A DNA stretch of 64,000 nt, taken from NCBI GenBank assembly GCA_017510335.1, contig JAFWNM010000033.1, forward strand, positions 86,868 through 150,867. The letters are read 5' to 3'. Of this stretch, positions 446 through 25,350 are shown in pieces (positions within the stretch are counted from its first letter, which is position 1; every line of letters begins with the position of its first letter). Both the position numbers and the translations under genes were made by a program. The notes below the pieces were generated by a model, which saw only the letters and a program-made list of their open reading frames with translations, did not search any database and was not told where the DNA came from. This DNA comes from Paracoccaceae bacterium (lineage in GTDB: Bacteria > Pseudomonadota > Alphaproteobacteria > Rhodobacterales > Rhodobacteraceae).

Positions 446-1204
446 TCATTCCATCACATCCAGCGGCTGTATGATGGGACCATGGATACCATGGTCCACA
501 TAGGCGCGAATATGAAAAACCCGTGCCAGAACGTCTGGCGTCAAAACCTGCGCGGGGGGACCGTCTGCGACAACCTCGCCCTGGGACAACACCACCAGAC
601 GGGTGCAGAACCGCGCAGCCAGACCCAGATCATGCATCGACGCGATAACCGTGCGCCCTGCGCGGGCCTCGGCGGTCAGGGTTTGCATCAGCGCAATCTG
701 GTATGCAGGGTCCAGTCCGGCAGCAGGTTCATCGACCATCAATACCGGCGTCGCCTGCGCCAGGGCGCGCGCAATCAGAACCCGCGCCTGTTCGCCGCCC
801 GAAAGCTGCGTGGCAATGCGCCCGCGCAACCCCTGCAGGCGCATGCGTGCAATGGCGCTGTCGATCGCAGCCTGATCCAGCGGTCCCGGTTTCTGCCCCA
901 CCCCCAGATGCGGCAACCGGCCCAGCGCGACCAGCGTTTCCACCTTGACGGGCCAGGCAATTTCGCGCGCCTGCGGCAACCAGGCGACATGCTGCGCGCG
1001 CGCCGCAAGCGGCAGTGCCGCAATTGACGATTGCCCCTTGCTGGCCATAAGCCCCAAGGCACCGCGCAACAATGTTGTCTTGCCCGCGCCATTGGGGCCA
1101 AGCAGTCCGACACATTCCCCCGCCCCAACCTGCAGATTGATGTTGCGCAGCACATCGCAAGGGCCCCGGAAAACGCTGAAATTCTGCAAATGCAGCGCGG
1201 TCAT
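446..1204 (-). CDS. btuD: Cobalamin/iron-chelate ABC transporter ATP-binding protein
   Basis: Walker A GPNGAGKT, signature LSGGE, Walker B LMVDEP, H-loop SMHD. 4-nt overlap with the permease gene; the operon is under a B12 riboswitch. Confidence 0.9.
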   Translation of the reverse strand: MTALHLQNFSVFRGPCDVLRNINLQVGAGECVGLLGPNGAGKTTLLRGALGLMASKGQSSIAALPLAARAQHVAWLPQAREIAWPVKVETLVALGRLPHLGVGQKPGPLDQAAIDSAIARMRLQGLRGRIATQLSGGEQARVLIARALAQATPVLMVDEPAAGLDPAYQIALMQTLTAEARAGRTVIASMHDLGLAARFCTRLVVLSQGEVVADGPPAQVLTPDVLARVFHIRAYVDHGIHGPIIQPLDVME

Positions 1205-2187
1205 AAGCCTTGTGCCCTTGTCTTGTAGATAAGGTGCAGGAACAACGGTGCCCCCACAAGCGCGGTCAGCACACCCAACTTCAGGTCGCGTGTGGGCAAG
1301 ATGACCCGCACCGCAATATCGGCCATCAACACCAGAACCGCCCCCCCCAACGCCGAGGCAGGCAACAGCGCCGACGGGCGCGCCCCCACCAAGGGGCGCA
1401 ATATATGCGGCACCACCAACCCCACAAACCCGATGGCCCCCGCCACCGCTGTGGCCGCGCCCACCATGGACGCGACACCCAGAACCAGCATGACCCGCAC
1501 CCGCACCAGACTGACCCCCATGCTGGCGGCCGCATCCTCGCCCAGGGTCAGCGCGTCAAAACTGCGGCCAAGCGCCAGAAGAACAAGCGCCCCCGCCACA
1601 ATGAAGGGTGCAGCTAGGATCACATGGGTCATGGACCTGTCAGCAAGCGATCCCATCATCCAGAATACAATCTCGGATGCGGCAAAAGGGTTGGGCGACA
1701 GGTTCAACACCAGCGACGTCAACGCCCCTGCAAGCGCTGACACGGCAATTCCCGCCAGAATCAGCGTGATTGATCCCCCCCTTGGTCCGGCCAGCGCCAA
1801 AATCAGCAACACCGCCAGCACTGCCCCAGCAAGGGCAGCAAAGGGCAGCGCCAGAATATGCACCGCCGCCAGTCCGGTTTGCAACGCCAGCACAGCCCCC
1901 AGCGCCGCAGACCCCGACACGCCAATCAGGCCGGGTTCGGCCAGCGGGTTGCGCAAATAGCCCTGCATGGCTGCCCCCGCCAAACCCAGCGCCGCCCCCA
2001 CCAACACCGCCAGCATGGCGCGCGGCAGGCGAATTTCACGCATCACCAGGGTTTCGGCCAGCGCATCCCCACGCACCAGCGCTGTCAACGCCTGCAACGG
2101 GGGCAAACCCGCCGGCCCAACCAACAGGGACACAGCAAACAGCGCCATGACCATACCCACCAGACCTGCGCCCAGTCCCCGCGCCAT
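1201..2187 (-). CDS. btuC: FecCD/BtuC-family ABC permease
   Basis: Motifs IRLPR, RNPLAEPGLIGVS and GAIGFVGLVVPH; highly hydrophobic. Start placed at ATG2187 (MARGLGAG) behind a G-rich RBS. Confidence 0.9.
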   Translation of the reverse strand: MARGLGAGLVGMVMALFAVSLLVGPAGLPPLQALTALVRGDALAETLVMREIRLPRAMLAVLVGAALGLAGAAMQGYLRNPLAEPGLIGVSGSAALGAVLALQTGLAAVHILALPFAALAGAVLAVLLILALAGPRGGSITLILAGIAVSALAGALTSLVLNLSPNPFAASEIVFWMMGSLADRSMTHVILAAPFIVAGALVLLALGRSFDALTLGEDAAASMGVSLVRVRVMLVLGVASMVGAATAVAGAIGFVGLVVPHILRPLVGARPSALLPASALGGAVLVLMADIAVRVILPTRDLKLGVLTALVGAPLFLHLIYKTRAQGL

Positions 2188-2191
2188 AGCC

Positions 2192-3013
2192 CTACCCCCC
2201 CTCATGCAGTTGCGAAAGCTGCGCAATTGCCCGCAACACCGCAGGGGTGCCACAGACCCAATCCGCATCCGACAGCGCCTGCGCGGCATGCTGGTCGCGC
2301 AGCGCTGTCATGGCAGGGTGGGTCAGCACTTCTTCGGCGCGCGAGGCACCGGGATAGGGCTGGCCGGAAATGACCAGATCCGGCATCAGCATCACCAGAC
2401 GTTCCAATGCCAGATGCCCGCCACCAGAAATGCCTTCTTCCGCCGCGATATTGGCAAAACCCGCCGCATTCAGAATATCATGCGCAAGCGAATTCGCGCC
2501 GGTGGTGTAATTGTTGGCATAATGCAGCGCTGCGCGCGGTCGGGTGTCCCGCTGGGTGCGCAACTGCGCCAGACCGGCGCGAAACTCCGAAACCAGCGCG
2601 TTGGCGTTGTCCTGCTGGCCCAACAATAGGCCAACCTGCAAAATGGCATCCGGAATGGCATCAAGGGTGTTGACCACAGGCAAGGTCACCACGTTCACAC
2701 CAAGCTGGCGCAGCAGCGCAACCGTATATGGCGACGTGAACTGCCCTGCCAGCACCAGATCGGGGTTCAGGCGAAACACCTCCTCTGCCTGACCATGGTT
2801 AATGGGATAGGACAGCGCCTGTTCCAGCATCACCGACATGTTGGGATCATGCGATATGCGCGAAATCGACACAAGCTGGCCGGGGCCTGCCAGCATCATC
2901 GCCAGTTGGTCCGTGCACAGATTGATGGAGACCACCCGTTCAGGTGGTCCCGCAGCCGCAGCCCCTGCCCAAAGGGCAAGGGCTGCACCAATGACCCTAG
3001 AAGCGCGACGCAA
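2192..3013 (-). CDS. btuF: Periplasmic cobalamin-binding protein
   Basis: Signal-peptide-like N-terminus, then PERVVSINLCTDQL, EEVFRLNPDLV and LERLVMLMPDLVI. Start is uncertain (TTG3013 chosen; the frame is open to 3088). Confidence 0.85.
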   Translation of the reverse strand: MRRASRVIGAALALWAGAAAAGPPERVVSINLCTDQLAMMLAGPGQLVSISRISHDPNMSVMLEQALSYPINHGQAEEVFRLNPDLVLAGQFTSPYTVALLRQLGVNVVTLPVVNTLDAIPDAILQVGLLLGQQDNANALVSEFRAGLAQLRTQRDTRPRAALHYANNYTTGANSLAHDILNAAGFANIAAEEGISGGGHLALERLVMLMPDLVISGQPYPGASRAEEVLTHPAMTALRDQHAAQALSDADWVCGTPAVLRAIAQLSQLHEGG

Positions 3014-4874
3014 AGCCAAGGTAAAACGCCCTGTCAGATGTGCCGTAGCCTGCAACATGTTGGTATTGCGTGTTGAACAGGTTATCAATTTTACCTATCA
3101 GATCAACGCGATCCGTCATCTGATAGCGCAGGGACAGGTTTGCAACCGTGTAATCCGGCAGTGGTCCCGTTGTATAGTTGGGCAGGAAATCCAGCCTGTC
3201 GGCCACATGACGCACAGACACCCGCCCTTGCAGACGGTCCGACAACATCGCATCCAGCCCCAGTTGCAGATCATGCCGCGGCACCCGTGACCGGCGCCGC
3301 TGGTTTGCCAGAAACGCATCAGTGTAGGTATAATTTGCCGATAGGGTCAGTGTGTCCGAAACAGGCTGCTCGAATGAAAATTCAACACCGCGACTGCGCG
3401 CCTTGCCGGGGGCATTCACAACACTGTTGAACGACCCTGCAGCGCAGGCCATTGCGACAGGGTCATACACGCAATACACATCATCTATCAGGTTCTTGGT
3501 ATCAATCTGGAACAGCGTAAGCGACAACGCACCGCCATTCGCGAAGGACAGGTCCGCGCCAATCTCGTAATTCTGGCTACGCTCCACATCCAGTCCGGGG
3601 TTGCCCATGAACGGGAATGCCCCGCCTGTCATCCCGAAGCGCTGTTCCACAGACGGGGCGCGAAACCCCGACCCCAGCGACGCGCGCAAGGTCAATGCAT
3701 CACCAAGGCGGTAGGATGTTGCAACGCGCAAGGTTGGAATGCTGCCATAGTTCGAGTTTCTGTCCATCCTGCCAGAAAGCACGATGTCCAGATCACTGGT
3801 CGCCGCCCATTCCGACTGCGCGAATATGCCATAGCTGGTTGCCTTCGCACCCGCTGGAACAGTGCGCCCAAGGGCTGTTTCGCGCTGGACATCCACACCA
3901 TAGAGTAGGCGCAGCGTATCGGTCATGTCGGTTTGCCCATTCCACGCCAGCCTGTCGCGCCGTCCTGTAAACGAACCGGGCAAACTGTCGCGCAGCTCCC
4001 TCTCGACGGAATAATGCGTATATTCCAGCGTCTGGCGCGATCTGTCAGTGGCGTATTCGACAAACACCCGTCCGCCATATTCCTTGCGGTCCTGTTCATG
4101 GGGGGCATCGGCCAACCAGTCATCAAATTCCACAAATGAATCTTGCAAAAAGAATGACGCGCCTGCAGACCAGTTATTGTCAACCTGATAGCGTGCGGAA
4201 AAACTCAGGCGTGTTTGCTTGTGGCCGTCCGGTTCCGGTTGCCCATCGGCTGCGGAAAAACCGTCTGCGCGGCTGTGGGACAGGCTTAGCGCATAGTCCA
4301 GCGCGCCATGCCGCTGGCGCAACGAATACTGCCCGACCACCGTGCCAAAACTGCCCGCCAGCAGGGTTGCGGTTTGCTGGGTTCCATCGGTTTCCGGGCG
4401 AAGCGTGGTAATATTAACAACACCAGCCGCCGCCGAACCGCCATATAGCGCCGATTGCGCCCCGCGAAGCACTTCTATGCGCGACACATCGCCCAGTTGA
4501 AGCGCGCCAAAATCGACTGCGCCGGTGGATGACCCGGGGTCGTTGATCAACACACCATCCACATAGACAGAAACGAAGCGCGGCTCTATTCCCCGAATAC
4601 GGACATCGGTTGTCGTGCCGACCGGGCCAGTCTGCGTAATACTTACGCCAGCCAGCCCTGCCAGCAATTCCGACACAGATGTGGCGCCGGTGCGGTCAAT
4701 CTGTTGGCGGGTCAGGACACTGACGCTTGACCCGCTGCGCCCCAATTCCGTGGGCGTCAGGTTCGCAGAAAAGGTGATTTCTTCCAGATTTATGATTTGC
4801 TGGGCCGGGGCTGGCAGTCCGATGCTGCCAATCAGCGCAGTTGTGGCGAAAAGTCGCCAGAGAGTGTTTTGCAT
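2997..4874 (-). CDS. btuB: TonB-dependent cobalamin receptor
   Basis: Signal peptide, plug motifs (VYVDGVLIND, IEVLRGAQSALYG...GVVNI), C-terminal NLFNTQY...F. First gene after the cobalamin riboswitch. Confidence 0.9.
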   Translation of the reverse strand: MQNTLWRLFATTALIGSIGLPAPAQQIINLEEITFSANLTPTELGRSGSSVSVLTRQQIDRTGATSVSELLAGLAGVSITQTGPVGTTTDVRIRGIEPRFVSVYVDGVLINDPGSSTGAVDFGALQLGDVSRIEVLRGAQSALYGGSAAAGVVNITTLRPETDGTQQTATLLAGSFGTVVGQYSLRQRHGALDYALSLSHSRADGFSAADGQPEPDGHKQTRLSFSARYQVDNNWSAGASFFLQDSFVEFDDWLADAPHEQDRKEYGGRVFVEYATDRSRQTLEYTHYSVERELRDSLPGSFTGRRDRLAWNGQTDMTDTLRLLYGVDVQRETALGRTVPAGAKATSYGIFAQSEWAATSDLDIVLSGRMDRNSNYGSIPTLRVATSYRLGDALTLRASLGSGFRAPSVEQRFGMTGGAFPFMGNPGLDVERSQNYEIGADLSFANGGALSLTLFQIDTKNLIDDVYCVYDPVAMACAAGSFNSVVNAPGKARSRGVEFSFEQPVSDTLTLSANYTYTDAFLANQRRRSRVPRHDLQLGLDAMLSDRLQGRVSVRHVADRLDFLPNYTTGPLPDYTVANLSLRYQMTDRVDLIGKIDNLFNTQYQHVAGYGTSDRAFYLGFASRF

Positions 4875-5014
4875 TTTCAACACCTATTGGTCCCGTGCGG
4901 ACCGATCCTGTCATGACATGTCTGGCAGGCGCAGGTGCACCGCAGACGGCGAAAGTGTCACCGCTACGGTCAAACCGTTACCCGCAGCGCCACCCGCGCC
5001 GGGACAGGGTGATC

Positions 5015-6662: not shown

Positions 6663-7685
6663 TCACTCTGCGGCGATGCCCATCGCGTCAGGATAAACTG
6701 GCACAAGCGCAATATCCTGCGCCGTCAAACCCTGCGCATTGCCGACATTCGCAATCAGGTGACCATCCAGCCAGATTTGCGCAGTGTCAGGGTTGCCCGC
6801 GTCAAACTGCACTGAAAGGTCCGGTGTGGCCAATCGCGCCGGGTCGAAATGCAAAATAATCTGGTCTTCGCGCGGGTCAAAATCAACAATCGTGACCGCA
6901 GCATTGCCTTGCAACCAATCGCCCAACGCGAAACTGTCCGCGCCATCCCCGCCATTCAGGTAATCGCCCTGACCGGCGATCAGCACATCATCACCACTAC
7001 CCCCATTCAGGAAGTTGCGCCCGCTGACGTCCTGTCCATTCTGGTCCAGCGTCGCACCCACCAGCGTGTCATTTCCTGCATCACCCTGCAGCGTGTTGTT
7101 GCCCTGACCGGCAATCAGCAGATCATCCCCCGCACCGCCAATCAGCGTGTCATCCCCTGCCCCGCCGATCAGGGTATCGTTACCCTCGCCAGCATTCATA
7201 TGCGTGGCACCCTGACCCGCCTGTAACCAGTCATCACCCGCCAGACCGGCAAGCGTATCATTTCCCGACCCGCCAACCAGCGTATCCCCCAGATTGCCCC
7301 CTTGCAGCAATGACGGGCTGTCCCCGCCAGCCAGATGCACGGGGTCTTCGGGGGCGGGGTCCGGGAACGCGTCCGAACTGTGAATGCGTTCATCCAGATT
7401 GTCGAACAATCCCGCAACATCCGGTGCAGGAAAAAAATACGGTTCGTCATCACTATCTGCCATGCCGGGCGCAGCGAAATCCTGCCCGAAACCGTCCAGC
7501 GTGCCACCCTCATCAGGCGCATCCGCGTACAGCACGAGGTTTTGCGTCTGCGCCGCCTCTGGGGCGTCGGTGCCATCATCAGGGGAATCATCTTGCTGGT
7601 CGTCGGACGTGTTGGCGGATGCAAGCATGCTGTCAGCGGCAACACCCGCAAGCAAAGCGCCGAATAATCCAATAAACATCAACAT
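6663..7685 (-). CDS. RTX/hemolysin-type Ca2+-binding repeat protein with hydrophobic N-terminus
   Basis: About 10 GGxGxD-type nonapeptides (GGSGNDTL, GGAGDDTL, GGAGDDLL, GGSGDDVL, GGDGADSF), an acidic low-complexity linker, and N-terminal MLMFIGLFGALLAGVAA. Confidence 0.85.
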   Translation of the reverse strand: MLMFIGLFGALLAGVAADSMLASANTSDDQQDDSPDDGTDAPEAAQTQNLVLYADAPDEGGTLDGFGQDFAAPGMADSDDEPYFFPAPDVAGLFDNLDERIHSSDAFPDPAPEDPVHLAGGDSPSLLQGGNLGDTLVGGSGNDTLAGLAGDDWLQAGQGATHMNAGEGNDTLIGGAGDDTLIGGAGDDLLIAGQGNNTLQGDAGNDTLVGATLDQNGQDVSGRNFLNGGSGDDVLIAGQGDYLNGGDGADSFALGDWLQGNAAVTIVDFDPREDQIILHFDPARLATPDLSVQFDAGNPDTAQIWLDGHLIANVGNAQGLTAQDIALVPVYPDAMGIAAE

Positions 7686-7894
7686 GTCACACCACCCCGC
7701 ATAGCACCGGAAAATCAAAATTCACGTCACCCAATGGCAAGATTGTCTCATAATTCATGGGATTCTCACAGTGGCATCAACTGCGCCTGTGGCTGAATCT
7801 GCGAAATTAGTTAACGCCACCCCCGCAAAAACAGGCTTTTCCCGGCGTTAGAAATGGTCTATGCGCCGCATCTGTGCTTTTGGCACAACTATCA

Positions 7895-7952
7895 GCCTTG
7901 CTGGACGACATCCCGGCCTGCGCCCAAACCCCAGTTACAGGAGAACCCGATG
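7895..7952 (+). promoter_or_regulatory. Putative S15 autoregulatory leader of rpsO
   Basis: Stem-loop GCTGG-ACGACATC-CCGGC directly before the AGGAG RBS and ATG of rpsO. It resembles alphaproteobacterial rpsO leaders as I recall them; not checked against a covariance model. Confidence 0.45.
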
Positions 7953-8219
7953 TCGATTACCGTAGAAGACAAAACCCGCCTGATTCAGGAATTCGCACGC
8001 GGCGAAGGCGACACCGGCTCGCCCGAAGTTCAGGTTGCTGTGCTGACCAAGCGCATCACCAACCTGACAGAGCATTTCAAGACCCACAAGAAAGACAATC
8101 ATTCGCGTCGTGGGTTGTTGACGCTGGTTGCAACCCGCCGCAAGCTGCTGGACTATCTGCGCGCCAAGGACGAAGCACGCTACCGCGTTCTGATCGCGAA
8201 GCTGGGTATTCGCCGCTAA
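7950..8219 (+). CDS. rpsO: 30S ribosomal protein S15
   Basis: MSITVEDK...[14 protein letters not shown]...[16 protein letters not shown]...RRKLLDYL...LGIRR; 89 aa; AGGAG RBS. Confidence 0.99.
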
Positions 8220-8261
8220 AGCGTTTCGGCTTTTTTAAGCAGCCAGATATAGCCGGTTTCG

Positions 8262-8292
8262 AACGCCCATCTTGGAAAAGATGGGCGTTTTC
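8262..8292 (+). terminator. Rho-independent terminator after rpsO
   Basis: Perfect 12-bp stem AACGCCCATCTT-GGAA-AAGATGGGCGTT followed by T residues. Confidence 0.85.
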
Positions 8293-8439
8293 CTGTTACG
8301 CCAGATGTATGGGCATCGGTCAAATGTGACAGGACATAGCCTTCAAATCGCCTTATTTCTGTCGCCAAACAGCGCCATAGACTGATACATATGACGATAA
8401 GGAAACAATTACGTTCCAATAGTGCGTTCGGTGGCAGGT

Positions 8440-9327
8440 ATGATTATGGTAAATACGCGAAAGCTGGAACAGCTTTTGAAGCGTTCGGATCGCACCAAAA
8501 CGACTGGCAAAGGCCAGCCGGAAACCACACCACTGCGTCGCGGGCTGGCACTTTCGGGCGGTCCTGCCCTGCGCAATGACCACCCCGCCAACACCCCTGA
8601 ACCCCTTGTCGTTCCCCTGAATGACGTCGCATGGGACCAGCTTGACGGCCTTACGCCTGATCCCGACATCGCCAAAGAACACCGCGCATTTAACCAGCAT
8701 GCGCGCACCCCCGCTGTGACAGCCCAGTTTGATGTGCTGCGCACCCAACTTGTGCAGACCTTTCGCAAACGGGGATTGCGTTGTCTGGGTATCACGTCGC
8801 CGCATTCCAATGCGGGCACCAGTTTTGTGGCGGCGGGGCTTCTGGCCAGTTTCGCGCGGCGCACCGATCTGCATGTCGTCGGGCTGGACCTGAATTTCGC
8901 CAATCCCGCGCTACATCGATACTTCGAAGCAGTGCCGGACGGTCCCATCCTTTCCGCGATAGAAGGCAGTATTCCCGTCGAATCGCATCTGCGGCGCGCC
9001 GGTCCCACACTGGCGCTGGGCCTGAACCAACCCGCGCCCGCGCCCGAACAAGGCAGCGCTGCCTTTCCCGCCGAAGATTTCGCAGACATGGTACAGGATA
9101 TTCTTGGCTTTCTCGGGCCGGATTTCGTGATTTGCGACATGCCCCCCCTGCTGGAAGGCGATTGCGCCCTGAACCTGCTGCCGGGAATAGATGCGGTTCT
9201 GGTTGTGTCCAACAGCCACACAACCAGTGCAGAAGACATTGCCGCATGTGAACGTGTTTTGCATGAACAGGCCGCGTTTCTTGGCGTTGTCATGAATCGC
9301 GCAGCCCCTGCACCAAAGGGGCGTTAA
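8440..9327 (+). CDS. CpsD/CapB-family (stand-alone Wzc C-terminal) tyrosine-kinase-like protein with degenerate P-loop
   Basis: FDVLRTQL...CLGITSPHSNAGTS (Walker A position), GLDLNFANP (A' position), FVICDMPPLL (Walker B), DAVLVV, FLGVVMN. Confidence 0.8.
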   Translation: MIMVNTRKLEQLLKRSDRTKTTGKGQPETTPLRRGLALSGGPALRNDHPANTPEPLVVPLNDVAWDQLDGLTPDPDIAKEHRAFNQHARTPAVTAQFDVLRTQLVQTFRKRGLRCLGITSPHSNAGTSFVAAGLLASFARRTDLHVVGLDLNFANPALHRYFEAVPDGPILSAIEGSIPVESHLRRAGPTLALGLNQPAPAPEQGSAAFPAEDFADMVQDILGFLGPDFVICDMPPLLEGDCALNLLPGIDAVLVVSNSHTTSAEDIAACERVLHEQAAFLGVVMNRAAPAPKGR

Positions 9328-9329
9328 AC

Positions 9330-18510: not shown

Positions 18511-19494
18511 ATGAACCCCACTGTCCTGACGATCATCGTTAACTACAAAAGCGCCGGAATGTCGCTGCAATCCGCGCAGGCCGCAAACCGTGCCATGACG
18601 GGCATTGACGGCGCAATTACGATTGTCGACAACGACAGCCAGGACGGCTCTTTTGAAACCCTGCGCGACGCCACGCGCGACATGCCACGGGTTCGGGTTA
18701 TCCAGTCGGGGCATAACGGTGGCTTCGGGTTTGGCAACAATGTTGCCATAAATGCGGGCCTGCCGGATGGACGTGCGCCGGATTTCGTCTATCTTCTCAA
18801 CCCCGATGCCTTCCCCGATGCTGATGCAATACAGGTGCTGCGCGACCATATGATCGCGCATCCGCAAACCGGCTTTGCGGGCAGTGCCGTGCGCGGCGAG
18901 GATGGCACCCCCCACGAGGTGGCGTTTCATTTCCCCTCTGCCTGGTCGGAATTCGAGACAGCGGCGAATACCGGCGTCATTACCAGATTGCTGCGCAACT
19001 ACCGCGTTCCCATGGGCTTTCCGCCGGCCACTTGCGCCGTGGACTGGTGTTCTGGTGCCAGTGTGATGTTCCGCCGCAGCATGCTGGACCAGATCGGCCT
19101 GTTTGACGAAACCTTTTTCCTGTATTTTGAAGAAACGGAATTGTGCCATCGTGCCCGCGCTGCAGGCTGGGCGGGCATGTATGTGCCCAAGGCCAGCGTT
19201 ATGCATATCGGTTCGGTTTCGACCGGCATGAGCAACAAGGCGCGCATACCGGGCTATTGGTTCAATTCGCGCGCGCATTATTATCGCAAGACAGGGGGCG
19301 CAGGGTATCTGGCAGTTGCAACGCTGTTTTATGTGCTAGGCGCATCCATCTGGAAAACACGCCGCCTGATTGAACGGAAAGAGGATCGGATTCCGCCATA
19401 TTTTCTCCGTGATCTTGTGGGACATACATTTCAGACCCTGATGCCGGGCACATTGATCAGGGGCAAACGGACGGGGGCGCAGGAAGCGCCCTGA
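18511..19494 (+). CDS. GT2-family glycosyltransferase (WbbL/rhamnosyltransferase-like)
   Basis: Motifs IIVNYKS, VDNDSQDG, NGGFGFGNN, LLNPDA, SGASVMFR, FFLYFEETELCHR and VMHIGSVS. Confidence 0.9.
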   Translation: MNPTVLTIIVNYKSAGMSLQSAQAANRAMTGIDGAITIVDNDSQDGSFETLRDATRDMPRVRVIQSGHNGGFGFGNNVAINAGLPDGRAPDFVYLLNPDAFPDADAIQVLRDHMIAHPQTGFAGSAVRGEDGTPHEVAFHFPSAWSEFETAANTGVITRLLRNYRVPMGFPPATCAVDWCSGASVMFRRSMLDQIGLFDETFFLYFEETELCHRARAAGWAGMYVPKASVMHIGSVSTGMSNKARIPGYWFNSRAHYYRKTGGAGYLAVATLFYVLGASIWKTRRLIERKEDRIPPYFLRDLVGHTFQTLMPGTLIRGKRTGAQEAP

Positions 19495-19507
19495 AAAGGG
19501 GTAATTT

Positions 19508-22500
19508 ATGCAGTTTTCAAGTGTTGTGATCGGCGATGAAAGCCTGCTGGCAGAATGCAGCAACCAGCTTTTGGCGCGTGGACACACCATTGCGGCTGTT
19601 GTCACCAACAACCCGCATCTGGCCAGCTGGGCACATGATAACAACCTGCCTGTCGTCAGCGCGGGCCGTGGTCTGGCAGACCGGCTGAATAGGCTGCATT
19701 TCGACTGGATTTTGAACATAGCCGGCCTGCGCGTGCTGCCGCCGGAAGTTCTGGCGCTGCCTGCCCGTGGGGCGGTCAATTTTCATGATGGCCCCTTGCC
19801 ACAGCATGCCGGGTTGAATGCACCCGTCTGGGCCTTGTTGGCAGGCGAACAACAGCACGGCATTTCATGGCATATGATCACCGAAACCATCGATCAGGGC
19901 GATATTCTGGCCCGCGCCGCTTTTGACATCACCGCTGATGACACTGCCTTGACGCTGAACGCAAAATGCTTTGCCGCCGGTGTCGAAAGTTTCGCAAATG
20001 TGCTGGACATGCTGGAACGCGGGCAGGTTTCCGGACAGCCCCAAGACATGACGGGGCGCAATGTGCATCTGCGCCATGACCGCCCCCTTCATGACGGTTT
20101 GCTGGATTTCACGCGCCCCGCCGCAGAACTGGAACGTGTGGTTCGCGCGCTGGATCATGGGCCATATTGGAACCCGCTATGCGCGGCCAAACTGCGGCTT
20201 GGCGCGCAACTTGCCTGTATTGGCGCCGCGCGGGTGGTTGACGGCCAAGGCGCGCCCGGACAGGTTCTTGATGTGGATTCCGACAGTCTGACCGTCATGT
20301 GCGCGGATATGGCGCTGCGCATGTCCGGACTGTTATGTGTGCAAGGGCTGCCCGTCAGCCCGGTGCAACATGTCACAACCGGCGACATGCTGCACATGCC
20401 CCCGAATGGCGTGACCGATGCGATGACGCGCATTGTGGCAGGCGAGCAGCGCTGGCGCGACGCCTTGCGCGCCATGGTGACGGTTCCCCGCCTTGCCGCA
20501 AAATCCGACAGGCGCGAAACACTGGCCCTGGATCTGGCCCTTGCACCGGACGCGCAAACCATTGCGGCATTCGGCGCGGCTGTCGCGCGCCAGTTCGGGT
20601 TGTCCGGCATCGACATGGCATGGCGCAATCGCGCCATTGCACAGGCACAGGCCGCCGCCCCCGACCATATTTCCGGCTGGGTGCCGGTGCAGGTGGACCT
20701 GCATGGCGCAAACCCCATCGCTGATGTTGAAACCCGCCTGAAGCTGGCCCAAACCGCGCCGGGCTTTGCCTGTGACATCAGCGCGCGCGATCCCATGCTT
20801 GGCCTGATCGAGATGCCGCATGTCGCCGTTACACACGGCGCCGAAGCACCGCAGGCGGCACTTGTGCTTGATCTGGACGCGGGCGCGTTGCGCTATGATC
20901 CCGAAATCCTGAGCGCGGCTGGCGCAAGCAAAATCAATACGCTGCTGGCAAACCCGCAGTCGATGGTCCTTGAACCGGACCAGCTTAACGCCACCACGCG
21001 TCCCTATGACCGCATTTGCATTCATCATGCGTTCGAAGCGCAGGTTCACAAAACGCCTGACGCCATTGCGCTGGCGTTTGAAAACCAGACCCTGACATAT
21101 GCGGACCTGAACGCCCGCGCCAACCGCGTGGCGCATGTGCTGAAGGGTATGGGCGTTGTCCCTGACACGCCAGTTGCGTTGTGCGCTGCACGCGGCCCGA
21201 ACCTGCTGATCGGCGCGCTTGGCATCCTGAAGGCGGGCGGGGCCTATGTGCCGCTGGACCCTGCCTACCCTGCGGACCGGCTGGCACATTACCTGAGTGA
21301 TTCCACCGCGCCAGTGGTCGTTACGGAACATGCCCTGCTGGACATGTTGCCCGACCATGATGCGGCGCTTTTGCAACTGGACACCGATGCGCGGCTTGCT
21401 GCGGCACCCGACACCACCCCTGACGGGACCACCACGCCCGACAATCTGGCGTATCTGATCTATACATCCGGGTCCACAGGCACACCCAAAGGGGTGATGG
21501 TGGAACATGGCAATGTCGCCAATTTCTTCGCCGGGATGGATGAGCGCATACGCCATGACCCGCCCGGCGTATGGCTGGCTGTCACATCGTTAAGTTTTGA
21601 CATTTCCGTGCTGGAACTGTTCTGGACATTGGCCCGCGGGTTCAAGGTTGTCCTGATGGGTGATGAGGACCGCACCGCTGTTTCGCGCGCGCCAGTGCGC
21701 GTGTCCGACAAACCCATGGATTTCAGCCTTATGTATTGGGGCAATGATGACGGGCAGGGGCCGCAGAAATACCGCCTGCTGCTGGAAGGCGCGAAATTTG
21801 CCGACACGCACGGGTTTTGCGCGGTCTGGACGCCGGAACGGCATTTTCACGCCTTTGGCGGCCCGTTCCCCAACCCGTCGGTTTCTGGCGCGGCAGTGGC
21901 GGCGGTTACGCAAAACCTGGCGGTGCGTGCAGGGTCTTGCGTGGCACCGCTGCATCATCCAGTGCGCATTGCCGAAGATTGGGCGATGATCGATAATTTG
22001 ACGAACGGGCGCACCGGCATTGGCATCGCTTCGGGCTGGCATCCGGTTGATTTTGTCCTTCGTCCCGAAAACCGCCCGCCCAACAACAAACAGGCGATGT
22101 TCGACATGATCGACACGCTGCGCAAACTATGGCGCGGGGATGCGGTCGAATTTGACAAGGGCGACGGGATGGTTCCCGTTCAGACCCTGCCGCGCCCCGT
22201 ATCGCGCGAATTGCCAATCTGGCTGACCACAGCAGGCAACCCCGACACTTGGCGTGACGCAGGACGGCTTGGCGCGAATGTGCTGACGCACCTGCTGGGC
22301 CAATCCATTGCCGAGGTGGCCGAGAAAATCACCATCTATCACGAAGCCCTGCGCGATGCGGGCCATGACCCCGCCGATTTTACCGTCACGCTGATGTTGC
22401 ACAGCTTCGTTGCGCGCGACCGCGACCATGCCCGCGAAGTGGCGCGCGGGCCGATGAAATCCTACCTGCTGGCGGCGGCGGCGCTGGTGAAACAATACGC

Positions 22501-24019
22501 ATGGGCCTTTCCAGCGTTCAAACGCCCCCAAGGGGCAAAGAACCCCATGGATATTGACCTGTCCGCCCTGTCCCAGGACGAAGTGGACGGCATTCTTGAT
22601 TTCGCCTTCAACCGCTATTTCGACGAATCCGGCCTGTTTGGCACGGTTGAGGATTGTCTGGACCGCGTGGAACAGCTCAAGGCGATTGGCGTGACGGAAA
22701 TTGCCTGCCTTATTGATTACGGCATCAACACCGATCAGGTTCTGGAAGGGCTGTTTCCGCTGGCCGAAGTGGTCAGGCGCGCGAATGCCGGGCTGGATCT
22801 GGCGCAGGATGATTTCTCGATCGCTGCGCAAATTCATCGCCACAAGGTCACGCATCTTCAATGCACCCCGTCCATGGCGCGCATGCTGGTCCTCAATGAC
22901 GACAGCCGCGCAGCACTGGCAAAGGTGGGGACTGTCCTGATCGGCGGTGAAGCCCTGCCCGGGGCCTTGGCGCGCGACATTGCGCAGCTTACCGGCCAGC
23001 CTGTGCATAACATGTATGGTCCCACCGAAACCACCATATGGTCAACAACCCTGACCACCACAGGCACAGACGGTATTGCGGGAATAGGCACGCCCATCGC
23101 GAATACTCAGGTTCATGTCCTCGACGACGCGCTGCGCCCTGTGCCCCCCCATCAGGACGGGGAATTGTTCATTGGCGGCGACGGGGTGACGCGGGGCTAC
23201 TGGAACCGCGCGGCACTGACAGAAGAACGGTTTATCCCCAACCCATTCGGGGCGGGGCGGCTGTATCGCACAGGCGATCTGGTGCAACGGGGGCATGACG
23301 GGTTGCGGTTCATGGGGCGTGTGGATCATCAGGTCAAAATCCGCGGCCACCGCATCGAACTGGGCGAGATTGAAACCGCCCTGGAAGCGCAGCCGGGCAT
23401 TACCGCCGCTGTTGCCATCGCCCGCGAAGACCGGGACGGCGACATAAGGCTGGTCGCCTATTACACCGGCAGCCCGTCGGGGGATGTGCGCGCCGCGCTG
23501 GCACAGCGCCTGCCTGCACATATGTTGCCCGCGCATTTTATCCCGCTGGCAAAAATGCCGCTGACGCCCAACAAGAAGATCGACCGCAAGGCCCTTCCGG
23601 CACCCACCAGCGCGCCACAACACATGCCAGCACCTGTCGCCAGCGCACCTGCAGGCACAGACACCGCCAGCAAGATCGCGGCCATATGGTGCGATGTGCT
23701 GGGCGTGGCGCAAGTGGGCCAGACGGATAATTTCTTCCATCTGGGGGGGCATTCGCTGCTGGCAGTGCAGGCCCACCGCGAAATGCGCACGCTATTGAAC
23801 ATTCCGGGCCTGTCCATCACAGATTTGTTCCGTTTCCCCGTTCTGGGGGAACTTGCCCGTCATCTGGATGGCAAACTGCGCCCGCTTTCGCCTGTGCAAA
23901 CACCACAAATTCACGCCATCGACAGCGCCCCCCTTGCCCCCGACACACCCCCATCAGACAGGGTTCAGGCCATGGCACGCCGCCGCGCCATGCGCGCAGA
24001 AAGGGCCGGACGCGCATGA
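19508..24019 (+). CDS. NRPS-like starter module: formyltransferase - degenerate C lobe - adenylation domain (Gly code) interrupted by luciferase-like monooxygenase - PCP
   Basis: F domain: NFHDGPLP...IDQGDI. A3 YTSGSTGTPKG; A4 FDIS; LLM insert with WTPERHFH and IASGWHPVDF; A5 NMYGPTE; A7 YRTGD; A8 KIRGHRIELGEIE; A10 NKKIDR. PCP: LGGHSL (Ser 23753). Confidence 0.95.
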   Translation: MQFSSVVIGDESLLAECSNQLLARGHTIAAVVTNNPHLASWAHDNNLPVVSAGRGLADRLNRLHFDWILNIAGLRVLPPEVLALPARGAVNFHDGPLPQHAGLNAPVWALLAGEQQHGISWHMITETIDQGDILARAAFDITADDTALTLNAKCFAAGVESFANVLDMLERGQVSGQPQDMTGRNVHLRHDRPLHDGLLDFTRPAAELERVVRALDHGPYWNPLCAAKLRLGAQLACIGAARVVDGQGAPGQVLDVDSDSLTVMCADMALRMSGLLCVQGLPVSPVQHVTTGDMLHMPPNGVTDAMTRIVAGEQRWRDALRAMVTVPRLAAKSDRRETLALDLALAPDAQTIAAFGAAVARQFGLSGIDMAWRNRAIAQAQAAAPDHISGWVPVQVDLHGANPIADVETRLKLAQTAPGFACDISARDPMLGLIEMPHVAVTHGAEAPQAALVLDLDAGALRYDPEILSAAGASKINTLLANPQSMVLEPDQLNATTRPYDRICIHHAFEAQVHKTPDAIALAFENQTLTYADLNARANRVAHVLKGMGVVPDTPVALCAARGPNLLIGALGILKAGGAYVPLDPAYPADRLAHYLSDSTAPVVVTEHALLDMLPDHDAALLQLDTDARLAAAPDTTPDGTTTPDNLAYLIYTSGSTGTPKGVMVEHGNVANFFAGMDERIRHDPPGVWLAVTSLSFDISVLELFWTLARGFKVVLMGDEDRTAVSRAPVRVSDKPMDFSLMYWGNDDGQGPQKYRLLLEGAKFADTHGFCAVWTPERHFHAFGGPFPNPSVSGAAVAAVTQNLAVRAGSCVAPLHHPVRIAEDWAMIDNLTNGRTGIGIASGWHPVDFVLRPENRPPNNKQAMFDMIDTLRKLWRGDAVEFDKGDGMVPVQTLPRPVSRELPIWLTTAGNPDTWRDAGRLGANVLTHLLGQSIAEVAEKITIYHEALRDAGHDPADFTVTLMLHSFVARDRDHAREVARGPMKSYLLAAAALVKQYAWAFPAFKRPQGAKNPMDIDLSALSQDEVDGILDFAFNRYFDESGLFGTVEDCLDRVEQLKAIGVTEIACLIDYGINTDQVLEGLFPLAEVVRRANAGLDLAQDDFSIAAQIHRHKVTHLQCTPSMARMLVLNDDSRAALAKVGTVLIGGEALPGALARDIAQLTGQPVHNMYGPTETTIWSTTLTTTGTDGIAGIGTPIANTQVHVLDDALRPVPPHQDGELFIGGDGVTRGYWNRAALTEERFIPNPFGAGRLYRTGDLVQRGHDGLRFMGRVDHQVKIRGHRIELGEIETALEAQPGITAAVAIAREDRDGDIRLVAYYTGSPSGDVRAALAQRLPAHMLPAHFIPLAKMPLTPNKKIDRKALPAPTSAPQHMPAPVASAPAGTDTASKIAAIWCDVLGVAQVGQTDNFFHLGGHSLLAVQAHREMRTLLNIPGLSITDLFRFPVLGELARHLDGKLRPLSPVQTPQIHAIDSAPLAPDTPPSDRVQAMARRRAMRAERAGRA

Positions 24020-24696
24020 TTCAACAACGCTTTTCACTGGTGCAATACGCGCGCCCCTTGTTCAGCGACAGGGTTGCCATGGCATGGGCCGACCCGAAAG
24101 CCCCCATGCCCCGCCTTATGGGCGACGAGGTTCTGGCCATTGAACAGGTCGCTGCCGCGCGCGCGCGCGAATTCGCCGCCGGACGCGCTGCCGCGCGCAG
24201 CGCCATGGAACAACTGGGCCATACGCCGCGCCCCGTCCTGCAAGGGGATGACCGCGCGCCAATCTGGCCTTCGGGCATTGTCGGGTCCATCACGCACACG
24301 GGCCAGGACGCGCTGGCCGTTGTCACGGATGACCCCGCCATTATGGCGTTGGGGCTGGACATGGAACCCGCCACACCGCTGGAACCAAGCCTGTGGCCAG
24401 TGGTTTGCACACAAAACGACATGCTTTGGCTGGCTGGCCTTGGCCCTACGCAGCGCGGACATTTCGCCAAGCTGCTGTTTTCCGCGAAAGAAGCGGTCTA
24501 TAAGGCACAGTATCAGGTCAGCCGCTGCCTGATCGATTTTCATGCGCTTGATCTGATACCTGATCTGGCTTCAGGCCGCTTTACCGGGACATTGCGGCAA
24601 GACGTTCCGCATTTTGCATCTGGAACCCGATTCGAAGGACAGTTTTCGATTCTCGCCAGTTCCATTGTCACAGCGGTGGAAATATACCGTCGCTGA
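24016..24696 (+). CDS. 4'-phosphopantetheinyl transferase (EntD-type)
   Basis: Motifs APIWPSGIVGSITH, LGLDME and FSAKEAVYKA; ATGA overlap with the NRPS gene. Confidence 0.93.
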   Translation: MIQQRFSLVQYARPLFSDRVAMAWADPKAPMPRLMGDEVLAIEQVAAARAREFAAGRAAARSAMEQLGHTPRPVLQGDDRAPIWPSGIVGSITHTGQDALAVVTDDPAIMALGLDMEPATPLEPSLWPVVCTQNDMLWLAGLGPTQRGHFAKLLFSAKEAVYKAQYQVSRCLIDFHALDLIPDLASGRFTGTLRQDVPHFASGTRFEGQFSILASSIVTAVEIYRR

Positions 24697-24956
24697 ACGC
24701 AGGTCTGCTGCAATAGGCGCAGTTTTTCAAAGCGGGCTATTCTATGGATAGTGGCTAACCCGACCCGCTTCCCCAACATTCTGCAAGCCGCCGCGACAAG
24801 CTGACCATGCCTTCAAAATCATTGGCAAAACCCGCCTTCAATCTGATACACTTGCGCCAGCAACCCTAACCAGAGGCAGTGTGCTGTCAGTTCCCAAAGC
24901 TACTGATCATCAGAATCGACGACAGCATTCCAGTATCAGAAAGAATCGAGGGCAGA

Positions 24957-25274
24957 ATGAACAAAACCCTGATTGCCGCCATCCTTTCGGCATTCGTTAT
25001 CCCTGCAATACCCACATCCGCAGCCGCCAGCGCAATTGAATCCGCATGCTTGCGGTCGGACAGGGCGCAAGCCACCCGCGCGTTGTGCCGTTGCATCGGA
25101 TCTGTGGCGAATGAAACGCTGACCCGCAGCGAGCAACGCCGCGCCGCCGCATTTTTCCGCGACCCACAGCTTGCGCAGGATGTGCGCATGTCCAAAAGTG
25201 ACCGCGATAATGCATTCTGGGCGCGTTACCGCGCCTTCGGGGACCGTGCCGAACAATTTTGCGCAGGGCGCTGA
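24957..25274 (+). CDS. Small secreted hypothetical protein with four cysteines
   Basis: Signal peptide MNKTLIAAILSAFVIPAIPTSAAA; mature part contains SAC, LCRC and QFC; GAGG RBS before ATG24957. Confidence 0.75.
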   Translation: MNKTLIAAILSAFVIPAIPTSAAASAIESACLRSDRAQATRALCRCIGSVANETLTRSEQRRAAAFFRDPQLAQDVRMSKSDRDNAFWARYRAFGDRAEQFCAGR

Positions 25275-25309: not shown

Positions 25310-25350
25310 AAGTCTAGACCCCGAACCATGTTCGGGGTCTAGACTTTTTT
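25310..25350. terminator. Long perfect hairpin between convergent genes (terminator)
   Basis: 17-bp stem AAGTCTAGACCCCGAAC-CAT-GTTCGGGGTCTAGACTT followed by a T run; abuts the PCu(A)C stop codon. Confidence 0.85.

What the first reader, a model, noticed from the sequence alone, without database searches (positions are those of the whole stretch)
8440..24696. Candidate undescribed system: polysaccharide-assembly genes co-transcribed with an N-formyl-glycine NRPS/PKS line
Seven co-directional genes have gaps of 2, 19, 39, 6, 13 and -4 nt: BY-kinase-like, Wzz-like, Wzy/WaaL-like, PKS, GT2, F-A(LLM)-PCP and PPTase. There is no drug-efflux pump, resistance gene, siderophore receptor or regulator, which argues against a secreted antibiotic or siderophore. 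The interleaving with glycan genes suggests a formamido-polyketide acyl unit that is attached to a surface polysaccharide or glycolipid. PKSs inside glycan loci are established (Burkholderia WcbR, Sinorhizobium RkpA), but those lack a formyltransferase/LLM-interrupted A-domain starter. I recall similar hybrid clusters being noted in Roseobacter-group genomes with no product assigned; this needs a literature check.
Basis: partly seen in the sequence, partly recalled or inferred. Interest (0 to 1): 0.9.

Follow-up and report, generated by a model that had tools for sequence, protein, structure and literature searches.

The report
Roseobacter PKS/NRPS cassette inside sugar-coat genes
The seven genes are real, but four of them are the long-known, product-less "Roseobacter PKS/NRPS cluster". 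Comparison with hundreds of related genomes shows that this cassette travels with the genes that build a surface polysaccharide, so it probably decorates that polysaccharide and does not make a free antibiotic.

Summary
Seven co-directional genes lie at 8440-24696 with gaps of 2, 19, 39, 6, 13 and -4 nt. They sit between the rpsO terminator and a strong terminator at 25310-25346.

PKS-GT2-NRPS-PPTase is the conserved orphan Roseobacter hybrid cluster reported since 2007; papers up to 2023 still give it no product. So it is not an undescribed cluster.

Sampling one genome per genus in the family, the NRPS occurs in 100 of 301 genomes and the Wzy-like gene in 107. Ninety-two have both, even where the genes are up to 415 kb apart. 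Within the window's own genus, Wzy and an unlinked Wzx flippase are present or absent together with the NRPS. In 54 of 58 named loci the cassette has Wzx/Wzy, chain-length or glycosyltransferase genes within 10 kb, in several different gene orders. The same glycan gene set exists without PKS/NRPS in other phyla.

The predicted chemistry needs revision. The glycine adenylation domain (code DILQLGMIWK) carries a MtaG/MelG-type monooxygenase between motifs A4 and A5. The starter is therefore alpha-hydroxylated formyl-glycine or glyoxylyl, not plain formamido-acetyl. The "BY-kinase" in this window has lost its Walker A lysine and tyrosine tail.

The parts
7950..8219 (+). rpsO (ribosomal protein S15). 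This is the upstream neighbour, not part of the system.
   Evidence: The translation reads as S15 by eye. No family search was run on it.
8262..8293 (+). Intrinsic terminator hairpin after rpsO (13-bp stem, then TTTTCC). It marks the upstream boundary of the seven-gene row.
   Evidence: Sequence. Fold of 8215-8345: -50 kcal/mol, z = -4.7.
8440..9327 (+). Gene 1: P-loop protein related to polysaccharide tyrosine autokinases, degenerate in this window (alternative GTG start at 8422).
   Evidence: TIGR03018 at 5e-12, far below cut-off; no Pfam hit. Walker A reads SPHSNAGTS (no Lys), A' reads LDLN, Walker B ICDMPP is kept, and there is no C-terminal Tyr. Most orthologs keep GCGK[ST], DxDxR and a YxY tail.
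9330..10616 (+). Gene 2: polysaccharide co-polymerase (Wzz/PCP-like chain-length protein).
   Evidence: TIGR03007 at 1.2e-20, below cut-off. Transmembrane segments at 18-36, 346-364 and 408-426 with a coiled-coil stretch between. Full-length orthologs (E <= 1e-31) in about 88 of 301 genera, nearly all NRPS-positive.
10636..12120 (+). Gene 3: Wzy/WaaL-superfamily membrane protein, most likely the repeat-unit polymerase.
   Evidence: Wzy_C at 1.9e-4, below cut-off. About 10 transmembrane segments. AF2 model pLDDT 90. Foldseek top hit WaaL 7TPG (E 6e-5), then RodA/FtsW. Present in 92 of 100 NRPS-positive genera.
12160..18504 (+). Gene 4: single-module type I PKS. KS 12190-13470, AT 13762-14628, KR 14875-16188, DH 16312-17103, ACP 17410-17601, TE 17737-18459 (alternative TTG start at 12130).
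   Evidence: Pfam and NCBIfam. Motifs found: KS TACSTS/HGTGT/NIGH, AT GHSMG, KR GGFGGIG and YVAAN, DH DQHRTSDGTAIVPG and HPALMD, ACP GGHSL, TE GFSGGG/LLDT/GDHDS.
18511..19494 (+). Gene 5: GT2 glycosyltransferase. It belongs to the ancestral glycan gene set.
   Evidence: PF13641 at 2.6e-11. Homologs sit next to the Wzy homolog in loci without PKS/NRPS: G121, G183, Desulfosarcina, Symploca.
19508..24019 (+). Gene 6: NRPS starter module. F 19508-20407, A N-part 21032-21676, luciferase-like monooxygenase 21722-22771, A C-part 22811-23611, PCP 23672-23866.
   Evidence: F-domain triad motifs NFHDGPLP (91) and IDQGD (128). A4 motif FDIS at 697, A5 motif NMYGPTE at 1168, monooxygenase at 739-1088. Specificity code DILQLGMIWK.
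24016..24696 (+). Gene 7: Sfp/EntD-type phosphopantetheinyl transferase, overlapping the NRPS stop by 4 nt.
   Evidence: PF17837 at 1.2e-23 and PF01648 at 1.3e-9.
25310..25346 (.). Strong 17-bp hairpin with T-runs. It is a bidirectional terminator that closes the region.

Best explanation
The row is a compact form of a Wzx/Wzy-dependent surface-polysaccharide pathway that carries its own small assembly line for an unusual acyl substituent.

Shown:
- The domain architecture and intact catalytic motifs.
- The glycine specificity code.
- The position of the monooxygenase within the adenylation domain.
- The genomic coupling to Wzy, Wzz, Wzx and glycosyltransferase genes.

Inferred, step by step:
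1. The PPTase primes the PCP and the ACP.
2. The adenylation domain loads glycine on the PCP, and the F domain N-formylates it.
3. The embedded FMN monooxygenase hydroxylates the glycine alpha-carbon, as in MtaG/MelG. This gives N-formyl-alpha-hydroxyglycyl-S-PCP, which may lose formamide to leave glyoxylyl-S-PCP.
4. The PKS adds one malonyl unit, and KR and DH make a 2-enoyl C4 chain: 4-formamido-4-hydroxybut-2-enoyl or 4-oxobut-2-enoyl.
5. The TE, the only acyl-transfer catalyst in the conserved gene set, puts this chain on a sugar of the lipid-linked repeat unit. That unit is built by a Bac_transf priming transferase, a GT26, GT2s and GT4s encoded elsewhere in this genome.
6. Wzx flips the unit, the Wzy-like protein polymerises it, and the Wzz-like protein, with a kinase-dead partner here, sets chain length.
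For: 1. Family-wide co-occurrence. In 301 genomes, one per genus, the NRPS is in 100 and Wzy in 107. Both are present in 92, NRPS alone in 8, Wzy alone in 15 (Fisher p = 5e-51, not corrected for phylogeny). Three of the 8 NRPS-only genomes are incomplete or fragmented assemblies, so the gene may simply have been missed, and 3 carry a different NRPS-then-PKS cluster.

2. The coupling survives loss of linkage. Wzy lies 176-415 kb from the NRPS in G162, G278 and G137. The BYK-Wzz pair lies about 1 Mb away in G146.

3. Within the window's own genus. Wzy is in 16 of 17 NRPS-positive and 0 of 8 NRPS-negative genomes (p = 8e-6). The Wzx flippase is on another contig in this genome and 2.66 Mb away in G024. 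It is in 19 of 21 NRPS-positive and 0 of 10 NRPS-negative genomes (p = 1.5e-6).

4. Named loci. Of 58 with PKS+GT2+NRPS, 54 have at least one and 52 at least two glycan genes within 10 kb, in at least four gene orders. The gene just upstream of the PKS is Wzy in 28 and Wzx in 21; the gene just downstream of the cassette is Wzz in 23.

5. The embedded GT2 belongs to the glycan set. GT26-Wzy-GT2-GT2-GT4-Wzx clusters without PKS/NRPS occur in Planctomycetota, Desulfobacterota, cyanobacteria and in-family G183. G183 also has a Bac_transf priming transferase and a PCP.

6. The asymmetry fits 'decoration needs scaffold'. The glycan set is found alone, but the cassette is almost never found alone.

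7. Chemistry. The code DILQLGMIWK is identical to that of all four MOX-bearing glycine domains in PMC12283262. The insertion lies between A4 and A5, as in myxothiazol and melithiazol. All catalytic motifs are present.

8. No transporter, regulator or resistance gene is conserved with the cassette. The TonB/FecCD genes of the window are not conserved nearby.
Against: - No product, acceptor or transcript was observed; every chemical step is inference.
- Two genera (G252, G332) have PKS-NRPS-PPTase without the GT2 and with no Wzy homolog in the genome. Their neighbours are IclR, TRAP-transporter and cobalamin genes. The cassette can therefore persist without this glycan pathway.
- The co-occurrence statistics are not corrected for phylogeny.
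- By sequence the TE is nearest ordinary NRPS thioesterases. Its match to the sugar-acylating Pks13 TE is only 1.5e-10, so hydrolytic release is equally compatible.
- No outer-membrane export (OPX/Wza) gene was identified.
- The F domain is closer to Met-tRNA formyltransferase and to ArnA, a sugar-nucleotide formyltransferase, than to the LgrA F domain.
Confidence: 0.55

Rival explanations
1. The cassette makes a free, possibly glycosylated, small metabolite (a signal, toxin or chelator). Its position among polysaccharide genes reflects shared regulation or an old insertion site, not a shared product.
For: The literature treats it as a secondary-metabolite cluster. G252 and G332 keep PKS-NRPS-PPTase without the GT2 or Wzy. 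The TE resembles ordinary releasing thioesterases. Related F-A(MOx)-PCP-then-PKS clusters without glycan genes exist in G080, G143 and G234.
Against: Wzy and the unlinked Wzx are present or absent together with the NRPS, within the genus and across 300 genera. The embedded GT2 is a glycan-set gene in taxa without the PKS. No exporter, regulator or immunity gene is conserved nearby.
Confidence: 0.2
2. The PKS/NRPS product is not a side decoration. It is a primer, aglycone or terminal cap of the glycan, for example an end group that anchors the chain or stops its growth.
For: It rests on the same coupling evidence as the best explanation. The PKS sits directly beside Wzy or Wzx in 49 of 58 loci. 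In this window the chain-length kinase is degenerate, so another way of controlling length would be useful.
Against: A Bac_transf priming transferase is linked to the cluster in at least 11 loci, and two homologs exist in this genome, so ordinary undecaprenyl-phosphate priming is available. A C4 chain is too short to act as a membrane anchor.
Confidence: 0.12
3. The F domain formylates an amino-sugar nucleotide, as ArnA does, and not PCP-bound glycine. The glycan would then carry an N-formyl sugar and, separately, a glycine-derived acyl group.
For: The F domain matches ArnA (6e-21) and Met-tRNA formyltransferase (1.5e-21) better than the LgrA F domain (2.5e-9).
Against: An N-terminal fusion directly to A-PCP is the architecture of proven formylating starter modules: LgrA, OzmO and CongA. 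The monooxygenase type acts on N-acylated glycyl thioesters in MtaG/MelG, and a formyl group would provide that acylation.
Confidence: 0.08

Closest known systems
Conserved Roseobacter-clade hybrid PKS/NRPS cluster (Martens et al. 2007; PMC4337385, PMC5014874, PMC10584327)
   Same: It has the same four genes in the same order (PKS, glycosyltransferase, NRPS, PPTase), is in the same family, and is similarly common: 28 of 57 genomes in the literature, 100 of 301 genera here.
   Different: The papers count four genes, call it a secondary-metabolite cluster and assign no product. None that I could search mentions the polysaccharide genes. In this window three glycan genes are fused to it in one row.
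MtaG / MelG (myxothiazol, melithiazol): glycine adenylation domain with embedded monooxygenase
   Same: It has the same glycine code DILQLGMIWK, and the FMN monooxygenase is inserted between A4 and A5.
   Different: MtaG is a terminal C-A(MOx)-PCP-TE module that releases an amide and discards glyoxylate. Here the module is a starter with an F domain, has no C domain, and hands on to a PKS.
N-formylglycine loading modules OzmO (oxazolomycin), CongA (conglobatin) and rhizopodin
   Same: It is an F-A(Gly)-PCP starter that feeds a PKS ketosynthase.
   Different: Those pathways have a CongE/OzmP cyclodehydratase and make an oxazole, and no monooxygenase is reported in their adenylation domains. Here no cyclodehydratase is in the row, a monooxygenase is present, and the context is a glycan locus.
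DltABCD (D-alanylation of teichoic acids) and AlmEFG (glycine on Vibrio cholerae lipid A); cited from own knowledge
   Same: An adenylating enzyme plus a carrier protein supplies an amino-acyl decoration to a cell-surface glycopolymer. The adenylation domain scores against DltA models.
   Different: Those systems have no PKS, formyltransferase or monooxygenase. They use dedicated membrane transferases (DltB, AlmG) and not a thioesterase.
Pks13 thioesterase of mycobacteria (acyl transfer to trehalose); cited from own knowledge
   Same: It is a PKS whose terminal TE transfers the chain to a sugar hydroxyl. The PKS scores against the Pks13 model, and the TE matches the Pks13 TE at 1.5e-10.
   Different: Pks13 handles very long lipid chains and its acceptor is a free disaccharide. 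The similarity is modest and no better than to hydrolytic thioesterases.
   Same: Wzx, Wzy, PCP, kinase-like ATPase, priming transferase and several glycosyltransferases are all found.
   Different: In this genome the genes are scattered over at least six contigs and the kinase is degenerate. No OPX was identified. WcbR and RkpA were not compared here.

Membership tests
Roseobacter conserved PKS/NRPS cluster | Four genes (PKS, glycosyltransferase, NRPS, PPTase) adjacent, in a Rhodobacteraceae genome | tested here: met
   for the genes. Descriptions in PMC4337385 and PMC5014874. Orthologs at 53-90% identity in 100 of 301 genera of the family. Nearest named loci are Roseinatronobacter and Natronohydrobacter.
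BY-kinase (bacterial tyrosine autokinase) | Walker A motif GxxGK[ST] | tested here: not met
   The window reads SPHSNAGTS, with Thr where Lys is expected. Most orthologs read GCGK[ST].
BY-kinase (bacterial tyrosine autokinase) | Walker A' (DxD) and Walker B motifs | tested here: inconclusive
   A' is LDLN (one Asp). Walker B ICDMPP is kept.
BY-kinase (bacterial tyrosine autokinase) | C-terminal tyrosine cluster | tested here: not met
   There is no Tyr in the last 30 residues. Orthologs in most other genera end in YxY.
Polysaccharide co-polymerase (Wzz/PCP) | Two transmembrane helices flanking a long periplasmic coiled-coil domain | tested here: met
   Hydropathy peaks at 18-36 and 346-364, plus one at 408-426. 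TIGR03007 at 1.2e-20 but below cut-off.
Wzy / WaaL (Wzy_C) superfamily | Polytopic membrane protein with the WaaL/SEDS-like fold and a large periplasmic loop with conserved Arg/His | tested here: met
   pLDDT 90. WaaL 7TPG is the top hit (E 6e-5, probability 1.0), then RodA/FtsW. Invariant R208, R327, R334 and R358. The Pfam Wzy_C score is below cut-off.
Wzy polymerase as opposed to WaaL ligase | Polymerises lipid-linked repeat units rather than ligating them to lipid A-core | not testable with these tools
   Indirect only. It is the sole Wzy_C-type gene in the complete PKS-less locus of G183, which has Wzx, PCP, a priming transferase and glycosyltransferases.
MtaG/MelG-type glycine A domain with MOx | Monooxygenase inserted between A4 and A5 of a glycine-coded adenylation domain | tested here: met
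   FDIS at 697, monooxygenase at 739-1088, NMYGPTE at 1168, code DILQLGMIWK. References.
MtaG/MelG-type glycine A domain with MOx | Terminal module context: upstream C domain and downstream TE in the same protein | tested here: not met
   The F domain is N-terminal, there is no C domain, and the TE lies on the separate PKS.
Formylating NRPS starter module (LgrA, OzmO, CongA) | N-terminal formyltransferase with the Asn-His-Asp triad, fused to A-PCP | tested here: met
   PF00551 at 3.3e-19 and PF02911. NFHDGPLP and IDQGD motifs. LgrA F domain at 2.5e-9.
Oxazole-forming formylglycine pathways | CongE/OzmP-type ATP-dependent cyclodehydratase in the cluster | tested here: not met
   None of the seven genes has such a domain. 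The rest of the genome was not searched for one.
Wzx/Wzy-dependent polysaccharide pathway | Flippase, polymerase, co-polymerase, priming phosphoglycosyltransferase and glycosyltransferases in the genome | tested here: met
   Wzx at C24:16717-18036; GT2, GT26 and GT4 homologs on C8, C17, C10 and C31; two Bac_transf homologs on C36 and C29. OPX/Wza was not searched for.
Siderophore NRPS cluster | Conserved linkage to a TonB-dependent receptor and uptake genes | tested here: not met
   The window's TonB receptor, binding protein and FecCD permease have no counterpart in about 100 related loci.

The most novel reading that the evidence does not exclude
The formyl group may be only a transient handle. 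After alpha-hydroxylation, formamide would leave and the line would build (E)-4-oxobut-2-enoyl, a strongly electrophilic enal. The TE would hang this on a Wzy-made polysaccharide. About a third of Rhodobacteraceae genera would then display a chemically reactive sugar coat able to bond covalently to amines on surfaces, hosts or matrix proteins. This would be the first polysaccharide decoration made by an NRPS/PKS assembly line.
Probability: 0.15. Interest if true: 0.85.

Novelty: new variant of a known kind. Interest (0 to 1): 0.6.

Why it matters
The Roseobacter hybrid PKS/NRPS cluster has been listed in genome papers since 2007 as a promising 'antibiotic' cluster with no product. It occurs in about a third of the genera of one of the ocean's most abundant bacterial families.

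If it serves a surface polysaccharide, three things follow:
- Natural-product screens of culture extracts have been looking in the wrong fraction.
- The trait bears on attachment, biofilm, algal and animal symbiosis and phage adsorption, not on chemical warfare.
- It would add assembly-line chemistry (formylation, alpha-hydroxylation, polyketide extension) to the known ways of decorating glycans, alongside acetyl, pyruvyl, succinyl, sulfate and D-alanyl groups.

The comparative data turn the open question into a short list of knock-outs and one in vitro reconstitution.

Tried and rejected
- Siderophore reading: prompted by the TonB receptor, binding protein and FecCD genes at 1201-4883. Rejected because these genes are not near the cluster in any other locus and are separated from it by trmB, FKBP, RTX and rpsO.
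- True BY-kinase: rejected for this window.
- 'PKS/NRPS replaces an O-acetyltransferase': PKS-less clusters in G183, Desulfosarcina and Crocosphaera carry WcaB/EpsC-like hexapeptide acetyltransferases. However, four PKS-containing loci also have one nearby, so the two are not mutually exclusive. I keep this only as a sign that the decoration genes vary; G121 has a sulfotransferase.
- GT4 family FAM12 as a core member: rejected, because it is conserved only in the four closest genomes of the genus.
- Separating orthologs from paralogs of gene 1 by E-value failed; position next to Wzz was used instead.
- A PDB sequence search with the Wzy-like protein found nothing; the fold search was needed.
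- Literature searches for a characterised product or mutant found none. Subscription journals are not covered.
- Outside the family, a class-wide scan found no full-length F-A(MOx)-PCP ortholog. Only two partial A(MOx)-PCP matches turned up among the roughly 397 genomes outside the family.

Full report
**1. What is in the window**

The + strand carries seven frames at 8422/8440-9327, 9330-10616, 10636-12120, 12130/12160-18504, 18511-19494, 19508-24019 and 24016-24696.

- Upstream lies rpsO (7950-8219), followed by a 13-bp hairpin and a T-run at 8262-8293.
- Downstream, a 17-bp bidirectional hairpin lies at 25310-25346.
- Terminator-like matches in the scanned stretch are at chance level: 25 found, 19 +/- 4.6 expected.

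**2. What the genes are**

- *PKS.* Domains are KS-AT-KR-DH-ACP-TE, and all catalytic motifs are present.
- *NRPS.* It consists of a formyltransferase domain with the Asn-His-Asp motifs, an adenylation domain, and a PCP. The adenylation domain is split by a MupA/Atu3671-type luciferase-like monooxygenase (TIGR04020, 473 bits against a cut-off of 244). The split lies between A4 (FDIS, residue 697) and A5 (NMYGPTE, residue 1168). The ten specificity residues read DILQLGMIWK.
- *Gene 7* is an Sfp/EntD-type PPTase, and *gene 5* is a GT2.
- *Genes 1-3* match polysaccharide families only below curated cut-offs.
  - Gene 2 has the PCP topology.
  - Gene 3 has about 10 transmembrane helices. Its AlphaFold model (pLDDT 90) has the WaaL O-antigen ligase as best solved-structure match (E 6e-5), followed by RodA/FtsW.
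  - Gene 1 is a degenerate relative of tyrosine autokinases. Walker A lacks the lysine (SPHSNAGTS), A' is LDLN, and there is no tyrosine tail. Most orthologs in other genera keep GCGK[ST], DxDxR and a C-terminal YxY. The kinase is therefore dead in the window's lineage, in its two nearest named relatives and in three loci from other genera (L010, L012, L013), but not in the family at large.

**3. It is a known orphan cluster**

PKS, glycosyltransferase, NRPS and PPTase in this order form the 'conserved Roseobacter PKS/NRPS cluster' of Martens et al.

- It was reported in 28 of 57 genomes with no product (PMC4337385; PMC5014874).
- A 2023 study of Roseibaca, Roseinatronobacter and relatives still lists it as an unknown NRPS-like/T1PKS cluster (PMC10584327).
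- The nearest named loci to the window are Roseinatronobacter sp. and Natronohydrobacter thiooxidans. Both have the same seven-gene row.
- None of the papers I could search connects the cluster with polysaccharide genes.

**4. Test of the glycan link: co-occurrence**

In 301 genomes of the family (one per genus), the NRPS ortholog is in 100 and the Wzy-like gene in 107. Both are present in 92, NRPS alone in 8, Wzy alone in 15 (Fisher p = 5e-51, not corrected for phylogeny).

- Full-length Wzz orthologs occur in about 88 genomes, nearly all NRPS-positive. A gene-1 homolog sits beside each one inspected.
- The partners stay together when unlinked. Wzy is 176-415 kb from the NRPS in G162, G278 and G137. 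The gene 1-gene 2 pair is about 1 Mb away in G146.
- Within the window's own genus, Wzy is in 16 of 17 NRPS-positive and 0 of 8 NRPS-negative genomes (p = 8e-6).
- The Wzx flippase lies on another contig in this genome and 2.66 Mb from the NRPS in G024. It is in 19 of 21 NRPS-positive and 0 of 10 NRPS-negative genomes (p = 1.5e-6).

**5. Test of the glycan link: neighbourhoods**

Among 80 named loci recovered with a GT2 alignment, 58 hold PKS+GT2+NRPS. Of these, 54 have at least one and 52 at least two glycan-assembly genes within 10 kb. The arrangements differ:

- GT2-GT26-Wzy-PKS-GT2-NRPS-PPT-GT2-GT4-Wzx;
- GT4-GT2-Wzx-PKS-GT2-NRPS-PPT-Wzz with the kinase gene convergent;
- GT2-Wzx-PKS-GT2-NRPS-PPT-Wzz-Wzy;
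- the window's own compact row.

The extra families are a Polysacc_synt_3 flippase, two GT2s, a WecG/TagA GT26 and GT4s. A Bac_transf priming transferase is linked in at least 11 loci.

This genome has homologs of all of these, but they are scattered on contigs C8, C10, C17, C24, C29, C31 and C36 among housekeeping genes. That answers the objection that the glycan module in the window is incomplete.

**6. The GT2 belongs to the glycan set**

Clusters with GT26, Wzy, this GT2, further GT2/GT4 genes and Wzx, but no PKS/NRPS, occur in four distant lineages and within the family:

- Singulisphaera, Desulfosarcina, Symploca and a gammaproteobacterium;
- in-family G183, which has a priming transferase and a PCP;
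- in-family G121.

These clusters carry other decoration genes: WcaB/EpsC-like acetyltransferases and a sulfotransferase. A few PKS-containing loci have an acetyltransferase too.

The pattern is asymmetric. The glycan set exists alone, but the cassette hardly ever does. That is what an accessory decoration module would show.

**7. Exceptions**

- G252 and G332 have PKS-NRPS-PPTase with no GT2 and no Wzy, beside unrelated genes.
- G080, G143 and G234 have a different NRPS-then-PKS cluster at 39-49% identity.
- Outside the family, the class scan found no full-length ortholog and only two partial A(MOx)-PCP matches.

**8. Predicted chemistry**

- DILQLGMIWK is the signature shared by all four monooxygenase-bearing glycine domains in a 2025 survey (PMC12283262).
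- In myxothiazol and melithiazol the monooxygenase sits between A4 and A5 and hydroxylates the glycine alpha-carbon. The carbinolamide then cleaves to an amide plus a glyoxylyl thioester. In solanimycin B the alpha-hydroxyglycine is kept (PMC10204066).
- F-A(Gly)-PCP starters feeding a PKS are known from oxazolomycin and conglobatin. There a cyclodehydratase makes an oxazole (PMC4504003). No such enzyme is in this row.

I therefore infer formyl-Gly-S-PCP, then alpha-hydroxylation. The PKS would then add one malonyl unit to either the carbinolamide or glyoxylyl-S-PCP. Ketoreduction and dehydration would give a C4 2-enoyl thioester, which the TE off-loads.

The TE is the only acyl-transfer catalyst in the conserved set. 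Its sequence, however, does not distinguish transfer from hydrolysis. The F domain is closer to Met-tRNA formyltransferase and to ArnA than to LgrA, so a sugar-nucleotide substrate is not excluded.

**9. Verdict**

It is wrong in calling the cluster undescribed, and incomplete on the chemistry and on the kinase.
- Confidence that the cassette is functionally tied to the Wzx/Wzy pathway: about 0.75.
- Confidence that it supplies an acyl decoration through the TE: about 0.55.
- Earlier AI notes of this scan reached a similar reading on another genome. I treated them as leads and re-derived the evidence independently.

Noticed in passing
window 1201-4883 (-): There is a FecCD permease, a periplasmic binding protein and a TonB-dependent receptor (an iron or cobalamin uptake set) a few kb upstream of the row. 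They are not conserved near the cluster in other genomes.
   Followed up: partly
window 6663-7718 (-): A 351-aa protein with four RTX calcium-binding nonapeptide repeat stretches lies between FKBP and rpsO.
   Followed up: no
window 24879-25274 (+): A 131-aa ORF with one predicted transmembrane helix lies between the PPTase and the strong terminator. It is conserved only in the two nearest named relatives (L029, L030). It may be an eighth gene of the unit.
   Followed up: partly
G000 contig C10:12215-15750: A GT4 glycosyltransferase (61% identical to the one next to Wzy in G278) sits between genes that read as leuC and leuD by eye. The glycan genes of this genome are scattered singly among housekeeping genes.
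   Followed up: partly
L010, L012, L013, L029, L030 versus about 24 other loci: The kinase partner comes in two states. One is intact (GCGK[ST], DxDxR, YxY tail). The other is degenerate (no Lys; tail lost or reduced to a single Tyr). The degenerate state is found in loci where Wzy directly precedes the PKS.
   Followed up: partly
L109-L112 (G252, G332): PKS-NRPS-PPTase occurs without the intervening GT2 and with no Wzy homolog in the genome. Its neighbours are IclR, TRAP-transporter and cobalamin genes.
   Followed up: partly
L027, L028, L113 (G080, G234, G143): A second cluster type in the family: an F-A(MOx)-PCP NRPS followed by a PKS (39-49% identity), with no GT2. It is probably a separate assembly line using the same starter chemistry.
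   Followed up: no
L102, L103 (Rhizobacter, Methylibium): Burkholderiales loci have a PKS (48% identity), a zinc-dehydrogenase-like protein, two GT2 homologs and a stand-alone AMP-binding enzyme in place of the NRPS.
   Followed up: no
L075, L076: Two family members have a more distant PKS (38-41%) with the GT2 and PPTase inside the same glycan locus, but no NRPS hit.
   Followed up: no
L025:11954-13954 and about 20 other loci: A roughly 660-aa protein has no Pfam domain and only faint calcium-repeat matches. It is conserved next to the cluster in many genera but has no hit in this genome.
   Followed up: partly
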